From the IMG/VR virus record IMGVR_UViG_2651869755_000012: 7,600 nt of DNA; one strand, 5' to 3'. The DNA is from a virus (lineage: Duplodnaviria > Heunggongvirae > Uroviricota > Caudoviricetes). The notes under the pieces were generated by a model, which searched no databases, had not been told where the DNA came from, and worked only from the letters and a program-made list of their open reading frames with translations. Below, one piece after another: positions 204 through 7,600 of the stretch; position 1 is the stretch's first letter; every line of letters starts with the position of its first letter. The translations under genes were made by a program, and so were the position numbers.

Positions 204-629
204 ATGGCAAAAGTATTTACACAAGAAGAGCGGGAAAAAATTAAAGGGCAGGTTGTTGAACTTGTACGTCTGAGCGGTCGCGAGACGTTGCGGCAACTGG
301 AAGCCAAGACAGGTGCGACAAGATATCTGATGAGTGTTCTCGCCAGAGAGCTGGTTGCCAGTGGCGATGTATACAACTCTGGTTACGGGTTATTCCCGTC
401 TGAACAGGCGCGTAAGGACTGGCAAAATGCTCGCAAAAAACTCTCAAGGGCAAAGGTGAAGAAACCTGCAGTGGTTGATCCGGACCTTATCTGGTCGTTA
501 CCAGACGGCGAAATACGCCGCTACGACAGGCGCCTGAATATAATCTGTCGCGAGTGCCGGAAGAGCGAAGCTATGCAGCGTGTACTGGCATTTTATCAAG
601 GAAATGTTAGGTATTTTAGACGTTACTAG
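204..629 (+). CDS. Hypothetical phage protein (141 aa), function unknown
   Basis: ATG at 204 preceded by GGAGG (193-197) at good spacing; the six-frame ORF 189..629 starts at an upstream TTG which I do not favour. Basic C-terminus; no catalytic motif recognised. Confidence 0.55.
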   Translation: MAKVFTQEEREKIKGQVVELVRLSGRETLRQLEAKTGATRYLMSVLARELVASGDVYNSGYGLFPSEQARKDWQNARKKLSRAKVKKPAVVDPDLIWSLPDGEIRRYDRRLNIICRECRKSEAMQRVLAFYQGNVRYFRRY

Positions 630-782
630 ATTAAAGAGCATTAGTTCAGATGTGAATTGACATTTTCATGGCGCAGGGTAGAGCCAGCGTGGTTGTCCGC
701 TTTGCGTCAAAACCAGATATTACCAGATTTAGACATATATTCCCGATAGCCCTGCTCTGATGCTACACTCTGTGCTATTTTC

Positions 783-1469
783 ATGACCCCAATAAAAATA
801 TTTATGACTATTGCTGATTTCAAACGGCCTAAATTGGAGCTCCCAAACGGGGCAAACAAACTACTACTGCACTCTTGCTGTGCTCCATGTTCCGGTGAAG
901 TGATGGAGGCGCTTCAGGCCTCGGGAATCGACTACACCATCTTTTTCTACAACCCGAACATTCATCCTCAGAAAGAGTATTTAATTCGTAAGGATGAAAA
1001 TATTCGCTTTGCTGAACAACACGGCGTGCCGTTTATCGATGCTGATTACGACACCGACAACTGGTTTGAACGTGCCAAAGGAATGGAATGGGAGCCTGAG
1101 AGGGGGATCCGTTGTACCATGTGTTTTGACATGCGTTTTGAGCGGACAGCGTTGTACGCTGCTGAAAATGGTTTCAGTGTGATCAGCAGTTCACTGGGCA
1201 TTTCACGCTGGAAAAATATGCAGCAGGTTAACGAGTGTGGGCGGCGAGCTGTTGCGCATTATCCGGGTATGGTGTACTGGGATTATAACTGGCGCAAGCA
1301 GGGCGGCTCGTCCCGTATGATTGAAATCAGCAAGCGCGAAAAATTCTATCAGCAGGAATATTGTGGCTGTGTGTATTCTCTGCGCGATACCAATCTACAC
1401 CGCAAATCTCAGGGACGCCCTCTTATCAAAATTGGCCAACTCCACTACGGAAAAGAAGAGAAGGAGTGA
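783..1469 (+). CDS. queH: QueH-type epoxyqueuosine reductase (DUF208 family)
   Basis: Translation carries the Cys motifs I associate with DUF208/QueH: [11 protein letters not shown] (CCAPC at nt 876-890), CTMCFDMRF and YCGCVYSL. Length 228 aa fits the family. Start could alternatively be the ATG at 804; neither has a strong SD. Confidence 0.75.
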
Positions 1470-1501
1470 TTTTATGGATCACCTTTCTGATTGATTTCAT
1501 A

Positions 1502-1530
1502 TTGGCGAGGTGACGTGAGTTAAGTAGAAT
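1502..1530 (+). promoter_or_regulatory. Putative sigma70 promoter of the hok mRNA (TTGGCG -17- TAGAAT)
   Basis: -35-like TTGGCG at 1502-1507, 17-bp spacer, -10 TAGAAT at 1525-1530. Predicted start near 1537 falls on GCTGCGGGTGCTTGAGGC, which resembles the 5' end of plasmid R1 hok mRNA (GGCGCTTGAGGC) as I recall it. Confidence 0.5.
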
Positions 1531-1599
1531 GGCTGCGGGTGCTTGAGGCTATCTGTCTCAGGCATGAACACTGAAAGGCAGATAGAGAAAAGCCCCAGT

Positions 1600-1667
1600 T
1601 AACATTTCGCGTCCTGCAAGACGCTTAACATTAATCTGAGGCCCAATCTATGTCTCACAAATGTAGG
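1600..1667 (-). ncRNA. Putative Sok-like antisense RNA (position inferred, ends uncertain)
   Basis: On the minus strand, TTGCCT (complement of + 1697-1702), 17-bp spacer, TAACCT (complement of + 1674-1679) form a weak promoter that would transcribe antisense across the mok-like start (ATGTCTCAC at + 1650). This matches the architecture of hok/sok loci. No clear terminator was found, so the 3' end is a guess. Confidence 0.25.
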
Positions 1668-1706
1668 TTAGCCTCTTACGTGCCGAAAGGCAAGGGGAAG
1701 CAGGCT

Positions 1707-1862
1707 ATGAAGCAGCAAAAGGCGATGTTAATCGCCCTGATCGTCATCTGTTTAACCGTCATTGTGACGGCACTGGTAACGAGGAAAGACCTCTGCGAGG
1801 TACGAATCCGAACCGGCCAGACGGAGGTCGCTGTCTTCACAGCTTACGAACCTGAGGAGTAA
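1707..1862 (+). CDS. hokD: Hok/Gef family type I toxin (51 aa), HokD-like
   Basis: MKQQKAMLIALIVICLTVIVTALVTRKDLCEVRIRTGQTEVAVFTAYEPEE: single N-terminal transmembrane helix and the conserved family core. From memory this matches E. coli HokD/RelF closely. An in-frame upstream ATG at 1650 (ORF 1650..1862) corresponds to the mok-like start; AAGGGGAAG lies ahead of the ATG at 1707. Confidence 0.85.
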   Translation: MKQQKAMLIALIVICLTVIVTALVTRKDLCEVRIRTGQTEVAVFTAYEPEE

Positions 1863-1930
1863 GAGACCCGGCGGGGGAGTAATCTCCCGCCACCTCTGAT
1901 GTGCCAGGCATCCTCAACGCACCCGCACTT

Positions 1931-1951
1931 AACCCGCTTCGGCGGGTTTTT
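1931..1951 (+). terminator. Rho-independent terminator ending the hok transcript
   Basis: Hairpin CCCGC-TTCG-GCGGG (1933-1946) followed by TTTTT (1947-1951). Confidence 0.7.
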
Positions 1952-1962
1952 GCATTAGTCTG

Positions 1963-1992
1963 GTTGACAAAAATAGAAAAATGCGAAAATAT
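1963..1992 (+). promoter_or_regulatory. Putative promoter of the two-gene insert (consensus -35 TTGACA)
   Basis: Perfect TTGACA at 1963-1968; weak -10 candidate AAATAT at 1987-1992 (18-bp spacer) inside an A-rich tract; the first ATG of the module is at 2028. Confidence 0.4.
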
Positions 1993-2027
1993 GTGGTTTA
2001 CGAATTCTAAAAAAAGCGAAACTTGAA

Positions 2028-2678
2028 ATGAATGAAAATCAGTTAGCTCCTTGTTGGGAATTTCAACCTTATCTTGCTGAAAACTATGTTCGCCACTTGT
2101 TGGCGGAGATCGCTAACGTACTTGAGCAGCTGTACTATCATAAGCACGCATTAGACAGCAACTGGTCTGAAGGTGTAAGGGCTTATGATTGGGTCAGAAA
2201 TCATCTTATTCAAAATGAAGATGCAATTCCTGGCCTTGAGATGATTTCCAAGGGGTTGGACTATGTAGTTGCTTTAAATAAAGTTCCGCTACAATTTACC
2301 AAAGATTGCATTAATAACCCCAAAAAGAAACATCGTCTGCGTCGAAATAAAGTAGAGTATGAGCAGCTCTCATTGTTTGGTGATGTTGAGGCTGAGCAAG
2401 ATATTACATGGCGAGTCATAGCTGAGCCTTTTTTATCCGAAGAGGGCGATGGTGAATTAGAGTCCACACTGCCTCGTTGGGAGGTAGCTCTTGTTGGATT
2501 TAATACTTATGGTGCTCAGATTAGTATAGTTTCTCATCAATCTACAGCATCGATGCCGCTTATGCCTCTTGATTATAACACACTCCCTGACGAAGCGGAG
2601 ATTAATAAGGTGCCTCTTCGTCGGCGTACGAAGGATAAAGATTTGGATGTGAGCAGTGATGGAACATCAGGTGAATAA
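2028..2678 (+). CDS. Unknown-function protein (216 aa), first gene of a two-gene module with the downstream HTH-peptidase
   Basis: Long ORF in an AT-rich segment, ATG at 2028, stop TAA at 2676-2678 overlapping the next gene's start by 20 nt. Acidic protein with a basic patch (KKKHRLRRNK); no transmembrane segment or catalytic motif recognised. Confidence 0.6.
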   Translation: MNENQLAPCWEFQPYLAENYVRHLLAEIANVLEQLYYHKHALDSNWSEGVRAYDWVRNHLIQNEDAIPGLEMISKGLDYVVALNKVPLQFTKDCINNPKKKHRLRRNKVEYEQLSLFGDVEAEQDITWRVIAEPFLSEEGDGELESTLPRWEVALVGFNTYGAQISIVSHQSTASMPLMPLDYNTLPDEAEINKVPLRRRTKDKDLDVSSDGTSGE

Positions 2679-3762
2679 CTTCACTGAGTATCGGGGTGAT
2701 AAGCTCAAACTAGCGAGAATGGCTGTTGGGCTTTCTTGTGAAGAGTTAGCCGAAAAAATTGGCAAGACAAAGCAATTCGTTAGCAAACTGGAGAAGGGGT
2801 GCAGGCCATCGGAGCAATGTCTTGAGTTAATATCTTCAGCGCTTATGATTAAGTCCAGTTTTCTTTTTACTGAACGAAAATACGCTCTGGAAAGTGATGT
2901 CTGCCATTTTCGGAGTAAGAAGTCCAGGACTCAAACGCTGACTAATAGTGTATTGGCCAGGGCTGAGATTCTTAATATTATAATTTCTGCTGTTGAAGGT
3001 GAAATCGAATTTCCTGACGTTAACATACCGGAGCACCCAGGGGCTGAATTACTTACTCCGAATGATATTGAGCGAGTGGCAGAAGATTGTCGCCGTGCCT
3101 GGAATTTAGGTCTTGGCCCTATATCATCAATGGTTAAATTGGCGGAGAGTTTAGGGGTAATCGTTGCGCATGTTACGGGAGTCGATGATCGTGTTGATGC
3201 TTTTACTGTTCACAATAACAGGCCTGTTATCATCAGGAACAATGTTAAAAAAAGCATATGTAGATTTCGCTCTGATTTAGGTCATGAATTAGGGCATTTA
3301 GTAATGCATGAGGGCATAACGACAGGTGATAAACTTACGGAATCACAAGCCGATCACTTTTCGAGCGCCTTATTAGTTCCCAGGTTATCTTTCATTAAAG
3401 AATTTCCACGAATACGAGGTAAGCAATTCGACTGGAATGCTCTGGTTGAATTTAAACTTAGATGGAAAATCAGCCTTAAAATGTGTATTTATCGAGCCAG
3501 CGCATTAGGCTTATTGACCCAGGAACAGGCAAGAACTGGCTATATGCATCTTAATTCCAGAGGGTATACGAGAGTTGAACCTGGTGATGAACTTTTGCGC
3601 CCTGAAGAACCCGGCATGCTGGCCGAGGCGATTGAAATGCTGGATGATGCAACCTGGCTAAGAATTCTTATGAAAACTGGCTTGAGCCAAGATTTAATTC
3701 GTGAGTTGTTCTCCATCAACAGACCTATTACAAATCCAAGAAATATTTTCCAGATTGTTTGA
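2659..3762 (+). CDS. Fused XRE-family HTH / ImmA-IrrE (COG2856, M78-like) zinc metallopeptidase, 367 aa
   Basis: N-terminal XRE-type helix-turn-helix (LARMAVGLSCEELAEKIGKTKQFVSKLEKG) and a central HEXXH zinc site (HELGH at nt 3283-3297, within DLGHELGHLVMHEG), plus about 150 aa of C-terminal extension. ATG at 2659 (GTG at 2656 also possible); stop TGA 3760-3762. Confidence 0.8.
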   Translation: MEHQVNNFTEYRGDKLKLARMAVGLSCEELAEKIGKTKQFVSKLEKGCRPSEQCLELISSALMIKSSFLFTERKYALESDVCHFRSKKSRTQTLTNSVLARAEILNIIISAVEGEIEFPDVNIPEHPGAELLTPNDIERVAEDCRRAWNLGLGPISSMVKLAESLGVIVAHVTGVDDRVDAFTVHNNRPVIIRNNVKKSICRFRSDLGHELGHLVMHEGITTGDKLTESQADHFSSALLVPRLSFIKEFPRIRGKQFDWNALVEFKLRWKISLKMCIYRASALGLLTQEQARTGYMHLNSRGYTRVEPGDELLRPEEPGMLAEAIEMLDDATWLRILMKTGLSQDLIRELFSINRPITNPRNIFQIV

Positions 3763-3766
3763 GTAT

Positions 3767-3787
3767 ACCCGCTTCGGCGGGTTTTTT
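3767..3787 (+). terminator. Rho-independent terminator after the two-gene module (same hairpin as at 1932-1951)
   Basis: CCCGC-TTCG-GCGGG (3768-3781) followed by TTTTTT (3782-3787); the 20-mer ACCCGCTTCGGCGGGTTTTT is identical to 1932-1951. Confidence 0.7.
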
Positions 3788-3806
3788 GTTTTTATTTTCA
3801 ACGTGT

Positions 3807-3836
3807 TTGAAGTTTTGGACGGTGCCAGAATAGAAT
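3807..3836 (+). promoter_or_regulatory. Putative sigma70 promoter (TTGAAG -18- TAGAAT)
   Basis: TTGAAG at 3807-3812, 18-bp spacer, TAGAAT at 3831-3836, upstream of the ORF starting at 3872. Confidence 0.4.
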
Positions 3837-3871
3837 CAAAAATACTTAAGTAGCGCGCAGGGAGAAGAGGG

Positions 3872-4093
3872 ATGGACCCCGAACAGGGGGAGTGCTATTT
3901 ATCTGGAAGGATTCTGTTGATGAAAATCGAAGAATTACGTGAAATTTTTAGTGAAGATGGCCTCTATGCTGTGCGCGTTGAGAATGGGGGTATTACCTAC
4001 ACAGCGTTAATTCCTGATGATCATGTAGTGTTATCTGTTGAGGCATTCATTGAATACTTGGAAAGACTCGGTTTCAAGGTAGTTCGGGAATAA
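3872..4093 (+). CDS. Small hypothetical phage protein (73 aa; alternative start ATG 3920 gives 57 aa)
   Basis: ORF with GGAG at 3861-3864 ahead of ATG 3872; the internal in-frame ATG at 3920 has GGAAGGA at 3904-3910. No motif recognised. Confidence 0.45.
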   Translation: MDPEQGECYLSGRILLMKIEELREIFSEDGLYAVRVENGGITYTALIPDDHVVLSVEAFIEYLERLGFKVVRE

Positions 4094-4152
4094 GTTATAA
4101 TACGTGAGCCAGCCTGAACAACTGGCAACCTGCAGCGCCATTGGAGATGACA

Positions 4153-4425
4153 ATGGCGCATAATTTCAAATTTCGCAATTCTGATTCTGCCTTTGCCAGC
4201 AGGCACGGGTGGCGTTCTCACGCATTCAAATATGACTGGTATCAGCACGATCCCTGTACTGAAGAACAGGCCGAATGGCTGATTCATAACTACCGCAGAC
4301 GTGGATATGAGTTTAGGAAAGCCCTCACCCTCGATTATCGTCACTGGATAATCTACGTCAGACTCCCTTATTCCGAACGCCCACCGCGTCCGTCCCGCAC
4401 ATTCCAGCAACGCATCTGGAGGTAA
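4153..4425 (+). CDS. Hypothetical phage protein (about 90 aa)
   Basis: ORF 4141..4425 in the track (TTG start); I prefer ATG 4153 with TGGAGA at 4142-4147. Stop TAA 4423-4425 lies 1 nt before the next gene's GTG. Trp/Arg/His-rich; no motif recognised. Confidence 0.4.
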   Translation: MAHNFKFRNSDSAFASRHGWRSHAFKYDWYQHDPCTEEQAEWLIHNYRRRGYEFRKALTLDYRHWIIYVRLPYSERPPRPSRTFQQRIWR

Positions 4426-4426
4426 C

Positions 4427-5473
4427 GTGCGGGTATTACTTCGACCTGTTCTGGTACCGGAACTCGGGCTGGTGATCGTTAAGCCGGGCCGTGAATCCAT
4501 GCCGGTATTCCACAATACCCGGGTACTGGTGGAGCCGGAACCGAAAAGCATGCGTAATCTGCCGTCCGGGGTCGTTCCTGCCGTTCGCCAGCCGCTGGCG
4601 GAGGATAAATCATTACTGCCATTTTTCAGCGACGAACGAGTGATTCGTGCTGCTGGTGGCGCTGGCGCATTGTCTGATTGGTTACTGCGCCATGTTAAAT
4701 CCTGCCAGTGGCCACACGGCGATTATCACCACAGTGAAACCGTCATTCACCGTTATGGTACCGGCGCAATGGTGTTGTGCTGGCACTGCGACAACCAGCT
4801 GCGCGACCAGACCTCCGAATCACTCGGGCAACTTGCTCACCAAAACCTGTCTGCATGGATGATTGACGTCATACGCCATGCAATGAATGGCTCGCAGGAA
4901 CGGGAATTATCGCTGGCTGAATTATCCTGGTGGGCGGTCCGCAATCAGGTGGCGGACGCGCTACCGGAAGCGGTATTACGTCGTTCGCTGGGGTTGCGTG
5001 CGGAAAAAATCCGCTCAATGTACCGTGAAAGCGACATCGTACCGGGAGAGCAGACCGCCACCAGCATACTGAAGCAGCGCACAAAAAATCTTGCGCCGCT
5101 GCCTCACGCCCACCAGCAAAACCCGCCACAGGAAGAGACGGTGGTCAGCATTGCCGTTGATCCTGAGTCTCCGGAATCTTTCATGAAACGACCTAAACGT
5201 CGCCGCTGGGTTAACGAGAAATACACACGCTGGGTGAAGACACAGCCGTGTGCGTGTTGTGGTAAGCCAGCCGACGATCCCCATCACCTGATTGGTCATG
5301 GTCAGGGCGGAATGGGGACAAAATCTCACGATATTTTCACGCTACCGCTGTGTCGGGAGCATCACAACGAGCTTCATGCGGATCCTCTGGCGTTCGAAGA
5401 AAAGCATGGTTCTCAGGTTGATTTAATTTTTCGTTTTCTTGATCACGCCTTTGCAACTGGCGTGCTTGGGTAA
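4427..5473 (+). CDS. DUF968 family phage protein (YdfU-like) with C-terminal Cys/His nuclease-like motif
   Basis: GTG start at 4427 preceded by GGAGG (4418-4422). C-terminal region KTQPCACCGKPADDPHHLIGHGQGGMGTKSHDIFTLPLCREHHNELH resembles the YbcO/DUF1364-type motif found in DUF968 proteins of lambdoid prophages. Position (upstream of rusA and Q) matches Qin-type prophages. Confidence 0.7.
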   Translation: MRVLLRPVLVPELGLVIVKPGRESMPVFHNTRVLVEPEPKSMRNLPSGVVPAVRQPLAEDKSLLPFFSDERVIRAAGGAGALSDWLLRHVKSCQWPHGDYHHSETVIHRYGTGAMVLCWHCDNQLRDQTSESLGQLAHQNLSAWMIDVIRHAMNGSQERELSLAELSWWAVRNQVADALPEAVLRRSLGLRAEKIRSMYRESDIVPGEQTATSILKQRTKNLAPLPHAHQQNPPQEETVVSIAVDPESPESFMKRPKRRRWVNEKYTRWVKTQPCACCGKPADDPHHLIGHGQGGMGTKSHDIFTLPLCREHHNELHADPLAFEEKHGSQVDLIFRFLDHAFATGVLG

Positions 5474-5485
5474 AAGAGGTGACTG

Positions 5486-5845
5486 ATGCTCATAGATTTG
5501 GTTTTACCTTACCCGCCGACGGTGAACACTTACTGGCGACGCCGTGGCAGCACATATTTTATCTCGGAGGAGGGAAAGCGTTATCGCCGGGCTGTGGCGC
5601 TTATTGTTCGCCAGCAGCGGCTGAAATTAAGCCTGTCCGGAAGGCTGGCGATAAAGGTGATTGCAGAGCCACCGGATAAGCGCCGCCGCGACCTGGACAA
5701 TATCCTGAAGGCACCACTGGATGCGCTGACGCATGCCGGACTACTTATAGACGACGAGCAGTTTGATGAAATCAATATTGTGCGCGGTCAGCTCGTTCCT
5801 GGTGGGCGGCTGGGGATAAAAATCACAGAACTGGAGTGCGCATGA
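5486..5845 (+). CDS. rusA: RusA Holliday-junction resolvase (crossover junction endodeoxyribonuclease)
   Basis: 119 aa; PYPPTVNTYW N-terminus and PDKRRRDLDNILKAPLDALTHAGLLIDD match the RusA active-site region (PDRRRRDLDN in DLP12 RusA as I recall). SD AAGAGGTGA at 5474-5482. Confidence 0.85.
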   Translation: MLIDLVLPYPPTVNTYWRRRGSTYFISEEGKRYRRAVALIVRQQRLKLSLSGRLAIKVIAEPPDKRRRDLDNILKAPLDALTHAGLLIDDEQFDEINIVRGQLVPGGRLGIKITELECA

Positions 5846-6531
5846 ATAACCAGTATTTACAGTTTGTGCGTGAGCAGCTCATTATCGCCACCGCTGATTT
5901 GAGTGGGGCAACAAAAGGTCAGCTTGAAGCCTGGCAGGAGAATGCCATGTTCGATACAGGGCGTTACAGGCGTAAAAAAATCCGGTACCGCGATGAAGTG
6001 ACCGGAAAAATGATAACGCGGGATAATCCACCAATCCCGGGAAAACAATCGCTGGCGAAGGGGACGTCAATTCCTCTGGTCAGTCAGGTTGCTTTTTCTA
6101 CATCATCATGGCGGCGGGCTGTTTTGTCTCTTGAAGAACATCATAAAGCCTGGTTGTTGTGGTGTTACAGCGGAAATACTTGCTGGGAGTATCAGATCGC
6201 GATAACGCAGTGGGCATGGACAGAATTTAAGACTCACTCTGGTACCAGGAAAATTGCAGGGAAGACACAGGAACGCCTGAAAAAATTAATCTGGCTGGCT
6301 GCACAGGATGTCAGGAGATGGGTTATAGGACATGATATCTACCAGCAACAGGAGCTTGCCCGTCTGTGTGGGATTAAGCCTGACAACTGGAGCCACAATT
6401 ATGTGAGCTACTGGCGTGAAATACTCGACATTTTTATGAACCTCGATACCGAATCTCTGATTTGCACTGTGAAAAGGAGATCTCAACAAAAAGCGGCATT
6501 TTTGCAGCGAGATATTGCAAAAGTCAATTAG
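5842..6531 (+). CDS. Putative Q-like late antiterminator (229 aa)
   Basis: ATG at 5842 overlaps the rusA stop (ATGA, 5842-5845). The gene sits directly downstream of rusA and directly upstream of an intergenic terminator, the canonical place for Q in lambdoid phages. Assignment is by position and size; no diagnostic motif was verified. Confidence 0.5.
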   Translation: MNNQYLQFVREQLIIATADLSGATKGQLEAWQENAMFDTGRYRRKKIRYRDEVTGKMITRDNPPIPGKQSLAKGTSIPLVSQVAFSTSSWRRAVLSLEEHHKAWLLWCYSGNTCWEYQIAITQWAWTEFKTHSGTRKIAGKTQERLKKLIWLAAQDVRRWVIGHDIYQQQELARLCGIKPDNWSHNYVSYWREILDIFMNLDTESLICTVKRRSQQKAAFLQRDIAKVN

Positions 6532-6578
6532 ATAGCATATATTTTATGTAAATGTGATATATTGCTGTAAAGTGTATA

Positions 6579-6605
6579 AACCCGCTCAAATGTGCGGGTT
6601 TTTTG
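6579..6605 (+). terminator. Rho-independent terminator (tR'-like) downstream of the Q-like gene
   Basis: CCCGC (6581-6585), 8-nt loop, GCGGG (6594-6598), then TTTTTT (6599-6604). An AT-rich promoter-like stretch at 6532-6580 precedes it, with a TATAAA-like hexamer at 6575-6580 (promoter not confidently resolved). Confidence 0.6.
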
Positions 6606-6677
6606 CTTAACTCTGTGGACCTTTTTATCTGTAGTTGTAATATATGGATATTGTTACAATTTAGGTCGGTGAGCTTA

Positions 6678-7355
6678 ATGGAAGAACAGCACGGTAATTA
6701 CTTTATAAAACGAATTCAGTTGATTGGAAGAGGGGCATTTGGCTTTGTTGAACACGTTAAGGTTTACAACCTCAATAAAGGTGAATGCGGGGATTATGCT
6801 AGAAAGGTTTTAGCACCCGAAAAACCAGAGCTTTTGGCGCAAATAGAGCAGTTTAGAAGGCGTTTTAAAAGGGAGGTTGTGTATCAATCACATTGCGTAC
6901 ATAGCAATATTGTTCCTATTTATTTGTGCGATTTGTTTGTTGAGAATCCATGGTTCATTATGGATAAAGCAGAATGTGATCTTGAGCACGAAATAACGAA
7001 CAACCTTCTTACAACAGATCAAAAAATTTCAATAGTGAAAATGGTATTAGATGGTGTAGCTTACATCCATGCCAAAGGCTATTTACACAGAGATATAAAA
7101 CCCTTTAATGTTTTGCGATTTAGCGACGGAACATACAAGGTGTCTGATTTTGGTCTGGTAAAAGATACGAATCCCGAAGGGGATACCACTAAATTGACCG
7201 AGATCGGTACCCGTATGGGAAGTACAAGATATATGGCTCCCGAGATTTTATATAATGCAGAGTATTCAGTTAAGACTGATGTTTATGCTGTGGGACGGTT
7301 AATTGAAGACTTAAATTTAGATGATAAAAAAATAAAGCCTATCATAGCTAAGTGA
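6678..7355 (+). CDS. Eukaryotic-like Ser/Thr protein kinase (Hanks-type), probably C-terminally truncated by IS insertion
   Basis: Gly-rich loop IGRGAFG (6723-6743), catalytic loop HRDIKPFN (7086-7109), DFG (7146-7154) and APE (7236-7244). ATG 6678 follows GGTGAG at 6668-6673; the track's TTG 6603 start lies inside the terminator. Only about 35 aa follow APE, and the stop TGA 7353-7355 is the first 3 bases of the IS terminal repeat. Confidence 0.75.
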   Translation: MEEQHGNYFIKRIQLIGRGAFGFVEHVKVYNLNKGECGDYARKVLAPEKPELLAQIEQFRRRFKREVVYQSHCVHSNIVPIYLCDLFVENPWFIMDKAECDLEHEITNNLLTTDQKISIVKMVLDGVAYIHAKGYLHRDIKPFNVLRFSDGTYKVSDFGLVKDTNPEGDTTKLTEIGTRMGSTRYMAPEILYNAEYSVKTDVYAVGRLIEDLNLDDKKIKPIIAK

Positions 7356-7600
7356 ACCGCCCCGGGTTTCCTGGAGAGTATTTTATCTGTGAACTCAGGC
7401 TGCCAGATCATCGTTTCCGATGGAAGCATAATAAGCTTTTTCTGCTTCTGCCGGAGGAGTATGGCCCAGCCTTTCCAGCAATCGTCGATTGTTATACCAG
7501 TCCACCCACGTGAGTGTGGCCAGTTCCACTTCTGCACGGTTTTTCCAGCTCTTACGGTGTATTACCTCCGCTTTGTAAAGACCATTGATGCTCTCCGCCA
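7353..7600 (-). mobile_element. Terminal part of an IS3-family insertion sequence (IS629/IS1203-like), extends beyond the window
   Basis: Terminal inverted repeat begins TGAACCGCCCCGGGTTTCCTGGAGAG at 7353; the minus strand encodes the C-terminus of an IS3-family transposase. I recall both as IS629-like. Confidence 0.8.
7395..7600 (-). CDS. IS3-family transposase OrfB, C-terminal fragment (5' end outside the window)
   Basis: Minus-strand translation ...AESINGLYKAEVIHRKSWKNRAEVELATLTWVDWYNNRRLLERLGHTPPAEAEKAYYASIGNDDLAA, stop (complement of 7395-7397). WVDWYNNRRL...LGH is the conserved C-terminal motif of IS3-family (DDE) transposases. This is a different frame from the track ORF 7283..7537. 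Confidence 0.8.
   Translation of the reverse strand, partial: AESINGLYKAEVIHRKSWKNRAEVELATLTWVDWYNNRRLLERLGHTPPAEAEKAYYASIGNDDLAA

What the first reader, a model, noticed from the sequence alone, without database searches (positions are those of the whole stretch)
7353..7600. IS629-like element inserted into the 3' part of the kinase gene, with the IS terminus providing the stop codon
The kinase ORF ends only about 35 residues after APE, so the conserved C-terminal lobe region is missing. Its TGA (7353-7355) is the first triplet of the IS terminal repeat TGAACCGCC. This is a clear insertional truncation. It may reflect selection against a costly or self-toxic abortive-infection kinase, or just the high IS629 activity typical of some E. 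coli lineages.
Basis: partly seen in the sequence, partly recalled or inferred. Interest (0 to 1): 0.55.

Follow-up and report, generated by a model that had tools for sequence, protein, structure and literature searches.

The report
IS629 insertion truncating a prophage kinase
A common E. coli jumping gene (IS629) has landed near the end of a prophage protein-kinase gene and cut off its last 29 amino acids; this is real, but it is an ordinary kind of event.

Summary
Window 7353-7600 is the right end of IS629. It is 100% identical to full 1310-bp copies and 247/248 identical to a copy annotated IS629. The transposase gene lies on the minus strand. The window is a whole draft contig (E. coli JA37, LJYC01000073.1), so it breaks off inside the repeat.

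Up to base 7352 the DNA matches strain ML35 exactly, where the kinase gene is uninterrupted (254 aa). Here it is 225 aa, and its TGA stop is the first triplet of the IS.

The lost 29 residues are an ordered part of the fold. They hold the near-invariant Arg234 between helices alphaH and alphaI, which pairs with the Glu of the APE motif. The truncated enzyme is therefore probably crippled (inferred, not shown).

The intact kinase is naturally compact. Relatives are 241-264 aa, so most of the "missing C-lobe" was never there.

In intact loci the kinase stop overlaps the start (ATGA) of a PP2C phosphatase gene. The IS would separate the two genes.

The other IS end and the target-site duplication could not be recovered, so an IS-mediated deletion is not excluded. 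The allele is rare and IS629 favours prophages. Nothing shows selection against the kinase.

The parts
6515..6543 (+). Sigma-70-like promoter just after the Q antiterminator gene (TTGCAA-17-TATATT). It is a candidate late promoter (pR'-like).
   Evidence: Consensus scan. This is a pattern match only; the role is inferred from its position after Q (Pfam Phage_antiter_Q).
6578..6609 (+). Intrinsic-terminator-like hairpin plus T-run between the promoter and the kinase gene (tR'-like).
   Evidence: 8-bp stem with 5 GC pairs, followed by a T-run.
6678..7355 (+). Truncated Hanks-type Ser/Thr kinase gene: 225 codons plus TGA (= WP_064761849.1). It lacks codons 226-254 of the intact allele.
7350..7352 (.). 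AAG: predicted left copy of the 3-bp target-site duplication. The right copy lies outside the contig.
   Evidence: Inferred from the 3-bp duplication of another copy (CTT) and from published 3-4 bp duplications for IS629 (PMC3271280). Not verified here.
7353..7600 (-). Right-end 248 bp of IS629, cut by the contig end. The terminal inverted repeat starts at 7353 (TGAACCGCCCCGGG...). The element's own orientation is the minus strand.
7395..7598 (-). 3' end of IS629 orfB: the last 67 codons at 7398-7598, with the stop at 7395-7397.
   Evidence: Identical to the annotated OrfB C-terminus. Pfam rve_3 and rve_2 hits.

Best explanation
A copy of IS629 (IS3 family, 1310 bp) transposed into a lambdoid prophage of uropathogenic E. 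coli JA37. It landed between codons 225 and 226 of a 254-codon prophage gene for a compact Hanks-type Ser/Thr kinase.

The IS lies with its transposase genes on the opposite strand, and its right inverted repeat abuts the kinase. Because the repeat begins TGA and fell in frame, translation stops at once. The product is exactly residues 1-225, with no IS-encoded tail.

The lost 29 residues are the last residue of the alphaH-equivalent helix, the near-invariant Arg234-Tyr235 and the alphaI helix (kinase subdomain XI). The truncated kinase is therefore most likely misfolded or strongly impaired. This step is inferred.

In intact loci the kinase stop overlaps the start codon (ATGA) of a PP2C phosphatase gene. 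The insertion would also put 1.3 kb of antisense IS between the two genes and break their translational coupling. This step is also inferred.

The event is most simply a neutral or mildly beneficial hit by an IS that prefers prophage DNA.
For: - IS identity and orientation.
- Exact identity to the uninterrupted ML35 locus up to the junction, and the 254-aa intact allele.
- The same junction in three other independent assemblies.
- Family length of 241-264 aa, with R234 and Y235 near-invariant.
- The lost tail aligns with subdomain XI of S. aureus PknB (4eqm).
- AlphaFold2 model at pLDDT 89.6, with helices at 220-226 and 238-250 and pLDDT 89-97 over residues 221-250.
- Full kinase fold by Foldseek.
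- Role of the Arg between alphaH and alphaI: PMC3415842.
- Kinase and PP2C genes with a 4-bp overlap in E. coli, Yersinia, Enterobacter and Pseudomonas.
- IS629 lies mostly in prophages and makes 3-4 bp duplications: PMC3271280.
Against: - The far end of the IS, the duplicated AAG and the 3' remnant of the kinase were not seen. The contig ends in the IS, and every search for the right junction was empty.
- Loss of activity of the 225-aa protein rests on conservation and on knowledge of other kinases. It was not measured.
- None of the 5426 complete E. coli genomes carries this junction, so no finished sequence shows the whole insertion.
Confidence: 0.85

Rival explanations
1. IS629-mediated deletion or rearrangement. 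The IS borders the kinase at 7353, but the DNA on its other side is not the rest of the kinase. The kinase tail, the phosphatase and perhaps more prophage DNA would have been deleted or moved by recombination between IS629 copies or by adjacent deletion.
For: The right junction could not be found anywhere. Another strain (SY033) shows this same prophage region riddled with IS elements: an IS3-family element in Q, IS1 in the kinase and an IS3-family element in the phosphatase. IS-mediated deletions in E. coli O157 are mentioned in PMC3271280.
Against: There is no positive evidence for it. The failures to find the junction are explained by short-read assemblies breaking at the IS and by the limits of the look-up tools. 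The prophage is otherwise base-for-base identical to ML35 over 4815 bp.
Confidence: 0.12
2. Adaptive inactivation. The kinase is the toxic half of a kinase/phosphatase toxin-antitoxin or abortive-infection cassette. The IS insertion was selected because it removes a costly toxin.
For: A prophage kinase-kinase-phosphatase module (KKP) works as a phosphorylation-based toxin-antitoxin and defence system (PMC11341870). The kinase-PP2C pair is a conserved cassette at accessory-gene sites of temperate phages. There are independent kinase lesions: an A7-to-A6 frameshift at codon 219 with an intact phosphatase, seen on 217 contigs, and IS1 in SY033. In the complete genomes checked, no locus had a damaged phosphatase beside an intact kinase.
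Against: Toxicity of this kinase is untested. The 225-aa allele is rare (2-5 contigs, against at least 1000 for the intact allele). An A7 run is a mutational hotspot and IS629 prefers prophages, so recurrence needs no selection. Truncated phosphatase alleles also exist in the protein collection, and their neighbouring genes could not be checked. 45 of 50 complete genomes with the pair show no length change.
Confidence: 0.15
3. Assembly artefact: the IS sequence was wrongly joined to the end of the kinase contig.
For: The window is an Illumina draft contig that ends in a multicopy repeat.
Against: The identical junction is present in two Logan assemblies and one ENA metagenome assembly from other samples. 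The join falls exactly at the first base of the IS inverted repeat.
Confidence: 0.02
4. The gene is naturally short, and the IS merely lies downstream of its native stop.
For: None beyond the compactness of the family.
Against: The native codon at this position is TGC (Cys226), followed by 28 more codons in a 100% identical allele. All 30 aligned relatives extend past the cut.
Confidence: 0.01

Closest known systems
IS629 (IS3 family; isoforms IS1203 and IS3411) insertions in E. coli prophages
   Same: The terminal sequence and the OrfB C-terminus are the same. Matching full copies have the 1310-bp length. The location in a lambdoid prophage is typical: 62% of IS629 copies in O157 genomes lie in prophages (PMC3271280).
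   Different: This insertion site, codon 225/226 of the kinase gene, was not found in any of 5426 complete E. coli genomes. The host is a uropathogenic blood isolate rather than O157.
KKP kinase-kinase-phosphatase module of Pf and other prophages (PfkA/PfkB/PfpC; PMC11341870)
   Same: Both are prophage-borne Hanks-type Ser/Thr kinase genes next to a PP2C (PF13672) phosphatase gene. KKP gives a plausible working model in which the kinase is the toxin or effector and the phosphatase is the antidote.
   Different: Here there is one kinase, not two. It has no cold-shock or FHA domain (254 aa, kinase domain only). The gene order is kinase then phosphatase with a 4-bp overlap. The site is downstream of Q in a lambdoid phage rather than in P2, P4, Mu or Pf phages. 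No function was tested.
PD-T4-6, Stk2 and mad6 kinase models of PADLOC
   Same: The kinase domain matches these models (mad6 E 6e-40, PD-T4-6 E 1e-34, Stk2 E 1e-27).
   Different: The matches cover only the generic kinase core (for example profile positions 11-201 of 327). The same PD-T4-6 models also flag a kinase gene present in every S. thermophilus genome analysed (PMC11514479). They are therefore not specific evidence of a defence role.
Stx-phage late-region cargo (stx genes downstream of Q, pR' and tR', next to the ileZ-argN-argO tRNA genes)
   Same: The cargo position is the same: after Q and a promoter/terminator pair, and before a methylase fragment and the tRNA-Ile/Arg/Arg genes. The layout of Stx phages is from my own knowledge.
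   Different: The cargo is a kinase/phosphatase pair, not a toxin. Q-dependent expression is inferred only.

Membership tests
IS629 (IS3 family) | Terminal inverted repeat beginning TGAACCGCCCCGGG, with near-identity to reference IS629 | tested here: met
   Window 7353-7600 is 247/248 identical to the annotated IS629 of LC567824.1 and 248/248 identical to a 1310-bp copy.
IS629 (IS3 family) | orfA/orfB transposase with programmed -1 frameshift and a DDE (rve) domain | tested here: inconclusive
   Only the last 67 codons of orfB are in the window. They are identical to IS629 OrfB and hit rve_3 and rve_2. orfA and the frameshift site lie beyond the contig end.
IS629 (IS3 family) | Complete 1310-bp element flanked by a 3-4 bp target-site duplication | not testable with these tools
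   The contig ends 248 bp into the IS. Searches for the right junction were empty.
Hanks-type (eukaryotic-like) Ser/Thr protein kinase, Pfam PF00069 | Catalytic motifs: Gly-rich loop, Lys43, Glu66, HRD (137-139), DFG (157-159), APE (187-189) | tested here: met
   Pfam Pkinase at E 2e-33. The Gly-rich-loop glycines, Lys43, Glu66, HRD and DFG are invariant, and APE is near-invariant, in the family alignment.
Hanks-type (eukaryotic-like) Ser/Thr protein kinase, Pfam PF00069 | Subdomain XI arginine between alphaH and alphaI that pairs with the APE glutamate | tested here: not met
   It is present as R234 in the intact allele. It is deleted in the window's 225-aa allele.
KKP (kinase-kinase-phosphatase) module | Two adjacent kinases, one with a cold-shock domain and one with an FHA domain | tested here: not met
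   There is a single 254-aa kinase with only Pkinase hits. Neighbouring genes in intact loci show no second kinase. The definition is from PMC11341870.
KKP (kinase-kinase-phosphatase) module | Adjacent PP2C (PF13672) phosphatase in a prophage | tested here: met
   In intact loci a 247-aa PP2C_2 protein gene overlaps the kinase stop. It is not visible in the window itself.
PD-T4-6 (PADLOC) | Full-length match to a PD-T4-6 model | tested here: inconclusive
   Matches at E 1e-34 cover only the kinase core, profile positions 11-201 of 327. The models are unspecific.

The most novel reading that the evidence does not exclude
The compact kinase plus PP2C phosphatase pair may be an uncharacterised minimal, phosphorylation-based toxin-antitoxin or abortive-infection cassette. 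It has overlapping genes and is carried at accessory-gene sites of temperate phages across Gammaproteobacteria. In that reading it is a two-gene relative in function, not in membership, of KKP. The IS629 hit would then be one of several recurrent lesions that disable the toxic kinase while sparing the phosphatase.
Probability: 0.2. Interest if true: 0.55.

Novelty: already known. Interest (0 to 1): 0.2.

Why it matters
As it stands this is a routine example of IS629 eroding a prophage gene. Its main practical value is as an annotation correction. The RefSeq protein WP_064761849.1 is named simply 'serine/threonine-protein kinase', yet it is an IS-truncated fragment that lacks a hallmark residue.

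The more interesting by-product is the gene that was hit. It belongs to a widespread, unstudied kinase-PP2C cassette that sits in E. coli at the same late-operon position as Shiga toxin genes. Natural truncated alleles (225 aa here, 218 aa on 217 contigs) are ready-made loss-of-function controls for testing whether the cassette is a defence or toxin-antitoxin module.

Tried and rejected
**Recovering the far IS junction and the target-site duplication.** All of these failed.
- Exact-pattern scans for the predicted right junction (0-8 nt gap allowed) and for the left junction in JGI metagenomes found nothing.
- The same two scans in IMG/VR viral contigs found nothing.
- The left junction was not found in the GTDB species-representative genomes.
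- A look-up of contigs encoding the exact phosphatase returned only long contigs with uninterrupted loci.
- A protein search with the predicted chimeric ORF reading out of the IS into the kinase tail found more than 1000 read-out ORFs from other IS629 copies. None carried the kinase tail.

**Literature on the exact proteins.** A search by the RefSeq accessions WP_000392435 and WP_000615423 found no paper. A keyword search for a kinase/phosphatase cargo downstream of Q found nothing specific.

**PADLOC hits as evidence of a defence role.** Rejected, because they cover only the generic kinase core and the PD-T4-6 models also flag a kinase gene present in every S. thermophilus genome analysed.

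**KKP membership.** Rejected, because there is no second kinase and no CSD or FHA domain.

**The 279-aa gene call from the TTG at 6603.** Rejected, because all relatives start at the Met encoded at 6678.

Full report
**Source of the window.** The window is the complete 7600-bp contig LJYC01000073.1 of E. coli JA37. JA37 is a uropathogenic blood isolate sequenced with Illumina reads and assembled into 193 contigs (PMC4722275).

**The observation.**
- The kinase ORF starts at the ATG at 6678 and ends at the TGA at 7353-7355, giving 225 aa. It hits Pfam Pkinase at E 2e-33.
- From 7353 to the contig end the sequence is 100% identical over 248 bp to IS3-family elements found in 4135 of 5426 complete E. 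coli genomes.
- One complete copy (L006 2001-3310) is 1310 bp long and starts and ends with inverted TGAACCGCCCCGGG repeats. It is flanked by a 3-bp duplication (CTT). Its first 248 bases equal the window tail exactly.
- That copy is 99.8% identical to elements annotated 'IS3 family IS629' in Stx phages.
- Compared directly with one annotated IS629 (LC567824.1), the window tail has 1 mismatch in 248. The minus-strand ORF at 7398-7598 is identical to the last 67 residues of IS629 OrfB and hits rve_3 and rve_2.
- The element is therefore IS629 itself. Its right end abuts the kinase, and its transposase genes converge on the kinase.

**The truncation.**
- Window 2540-7354 is identical at all 4815 positions to the chromosome of strain ML35.
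- In ML35 the gene reads ...GCT AAG TGC ACA AGG... and continues to 254 aa (WP_000392435.1).
- In the window, GCT AAG is followed by TGA ACC GCC, so the native Cys226 codon is replaced by the first triplet of the IS.
- The two shared bases (TG) explain why the alignments run to 7354.
- The annotated IS begins with TGA, so the IS starts at 7353. The expected duplication is AAG (7350-7352) or TAAG.
- Both ends of IS629 begin TGA, so an immediate stop is expected for one insertion frame in three. It is not a special feature.

**Not a natural short form and not an artefact.**
- A search of 5.8 billion proteins found a family of compact kinases of 241-264 aa across Gammaproteobacteria.
- In an alignment of 30 intact members at 43-74% identity, every one extends 25-40 residues past the cut. 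Arg234 and Tyr235 are near-invariant.
- The same junction is present in two Logan assemblies and one ENA metagenome assembly from other samples. This rules out a chimeric contig end.
- The allele is rare. It occurs on 2-5 contigs, against at least 1000 for the intact allele, and in none of the 5426 complete genomes.

**What was lost.**
- phmmer against solved structures aligns residues 211-246 with residues 235-271 of S. aureus PknB (4eqm). The pairing is ...IIAKCTRMDKDDRYQTI... with ...ILRATEKDKANRYKTI..., which is kinase subdomain XI.
- About 29 residues of PknB between the two aligned blocks have no counterpart. I read this as a native absence of the alphaG region.
- An AlphaFold2 model of the intact protein (mean pLDDT 89.6) has helices at 198-211, 220-226 and 238-250. 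Block-mean pLDDT is 89-97 over residues 221-250. Foldseek matches complete kinase domains at TM about 0.75.
- The lost segment is therefore ordered. It comprises the last residue of the alphaH-like helix, the Arg234 loop and the alphaI-like helix.
- In eukaryotic-type kinases the arginine between alphaH and alphaI forms a buried ion pair with the glutamate of APE. Mutating either residue severely reduces activity (PMC3415842).
- I infer that the 225-aa protein is unstable or strongly impaired. This was not measured.

**Context of the gene.**
- In ML35 and in other complete genomes, the kinase stop overlaps the start codon (ATGA) of a 247-aa PP2C phosphatase gene (PF13672). A methylase fragment and tRNA-Ile/Arg/Arg genes follow.
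- This is the cargo position that stx genes occupy in Stx phages (my own knowledge).
- The kinase-PP2C pair with the same 4-bp overlap recurs in three other settings. In Yersinia prophages it lies after the antiterminator and before the holin. In Enterobacter prophages it lies after the lysis genes and before the terminase. In Pseudomonas putida it lies in an island with transposases.
- It is thus a mobile two-gene cassette. The IS would separate its two genes by 1.3 kb of antisense IS and abolish any translational coupling (inferred).

**Comparison with known systems.**
- The nearest characterised analogue is KKP, a prophage phosphatase plus two kinases that acts as a phosphorylation-based toxin-antitoxin and anti-phage system (PMC11341870).
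- The present cassette fails KKP's defining features. It has one kinase, no CSD or FHA domain, and a different gene order. It is an analogue at most.
- PADLOC kinase models (mad6, PD-T4-6, Stk2) match only the generic kinase core. The PD-T4-6 models also flag a kinase gene found in every S. thermophilus genome analysed, so they do not establish a defence role.

**Selection or chance.** Other independent lesions exist.
- An A7-to-A6 frameshift at codon 219 gives a 218-aa kinase with an intact phosphatase. It is seen on 217 contigs and in four complete genomes.
- Strain SY033 has an IS3-family element in Q, IS1 in the kinase and another IS3-family element in the phosphatase.

This fits loss of a costly kinase. 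However, homopolymer slippage and IS629's known bias for prophages (62% of copies; PMC3271280) explain it equally well. In addition, 45 of 50 complete genomes with the pair show no length change. I rate adaptive inactivation at about 0.15.

**Open point.** The far end of the IS, the duplicated AAG and the kinase remnant were not recovered despite pattern scans, a phosphatase look-up and a chimeric-ORF search. A simple insertion is the most economical reading. An IS-mediated deletion remains possible, at about 0.12.

**Verdict.** The finding is real and correctly interpreted, but ordinary: an IS629 insertion that truncates a prophage accessory gene. Interest is low (0.2). The untested kinase-PP2C cassette that it hit is the part that may deserve follow-up.

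Noticed in passing
L007 340-996 (strain 118UI); also L022: A second, independent truncated kinase allele. An A7-to-A6 deletion at codon 219, only 7 codons upstream of the IS629 site, gives a 218-aa protein with the phosphatase gene intact. This allele is seen on 217 contigs, so it marks a successful lineage rather than a sequencing error.
   Followed up: partly
L008 (strain SY033, NZ_CM185152.1) 600-5500: The same prophage region is riddled with insertion sequences: an IS3-family element in Q, IS1 removing the 5' part of the kinase gene, and another IS3-family element in the phosphatase gene.
   Followed up: partly
L001 4139-5643; L009-L017: A compact kinase (about 250 aa) and a PP2C phosphatase (about 247 aa) with a 4-bp ATGA overlap form a conserved cassette. 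It sits at accessory-gene sites of temperate phages in Escherichia, Yersinia and Enterobacter, and in a Pseudomonas island. No experimental study of it was found.
   Followed up: partly
window 1537-1862: A hok/sok type I toxin-antitoxin locus in the prophage. Rfam sok scores 120.5 bits at 1537-1712, and a 70-aa Hok/Gef ORF lies at 1650-1862.
   Followed up: no
window 783-1469: The prophage encodes a QueH-family (epoxyqueuosine reductase, PF02677) protein of 228 aa. This is unusual cargo and may relate to queuosine or 7-deazaguanine metabolism.
   Followed up: no
window 2028-3762: An overlapping gene pair: a 216-aa protein of unknown function followed by a 368-aa HTH plus peptidase M78 (ImmA/IrrE-like) protein. 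The layout is typical of a prophage regulatory or anti-repressor module.
   Followed up: no
IS629 left end, for example L006 3170-3310 read outwards: An open frame reads out of the IS629 left end into whatever DNA flanks it. It has been called as more than 1000 different 'hypothetical protein' entries in public databases. This is an annotation artefact of IS629 junctions.
   Followed up: partly
window 6603-6677: Some annotations start the kinase at the TTG at 6603 (279 aa; seen on 700 contigs). The family alignment shows that the real start is the ATG at 6678.
   Followed up: yes
window 6652-6660: TGTTACAAT, an extended -10-like motif 18 nt upstream of the kinase start. It could give expression in the lysogen independent of Q. 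The consensus scan did not flag it and it is untested.
   Followed up: no
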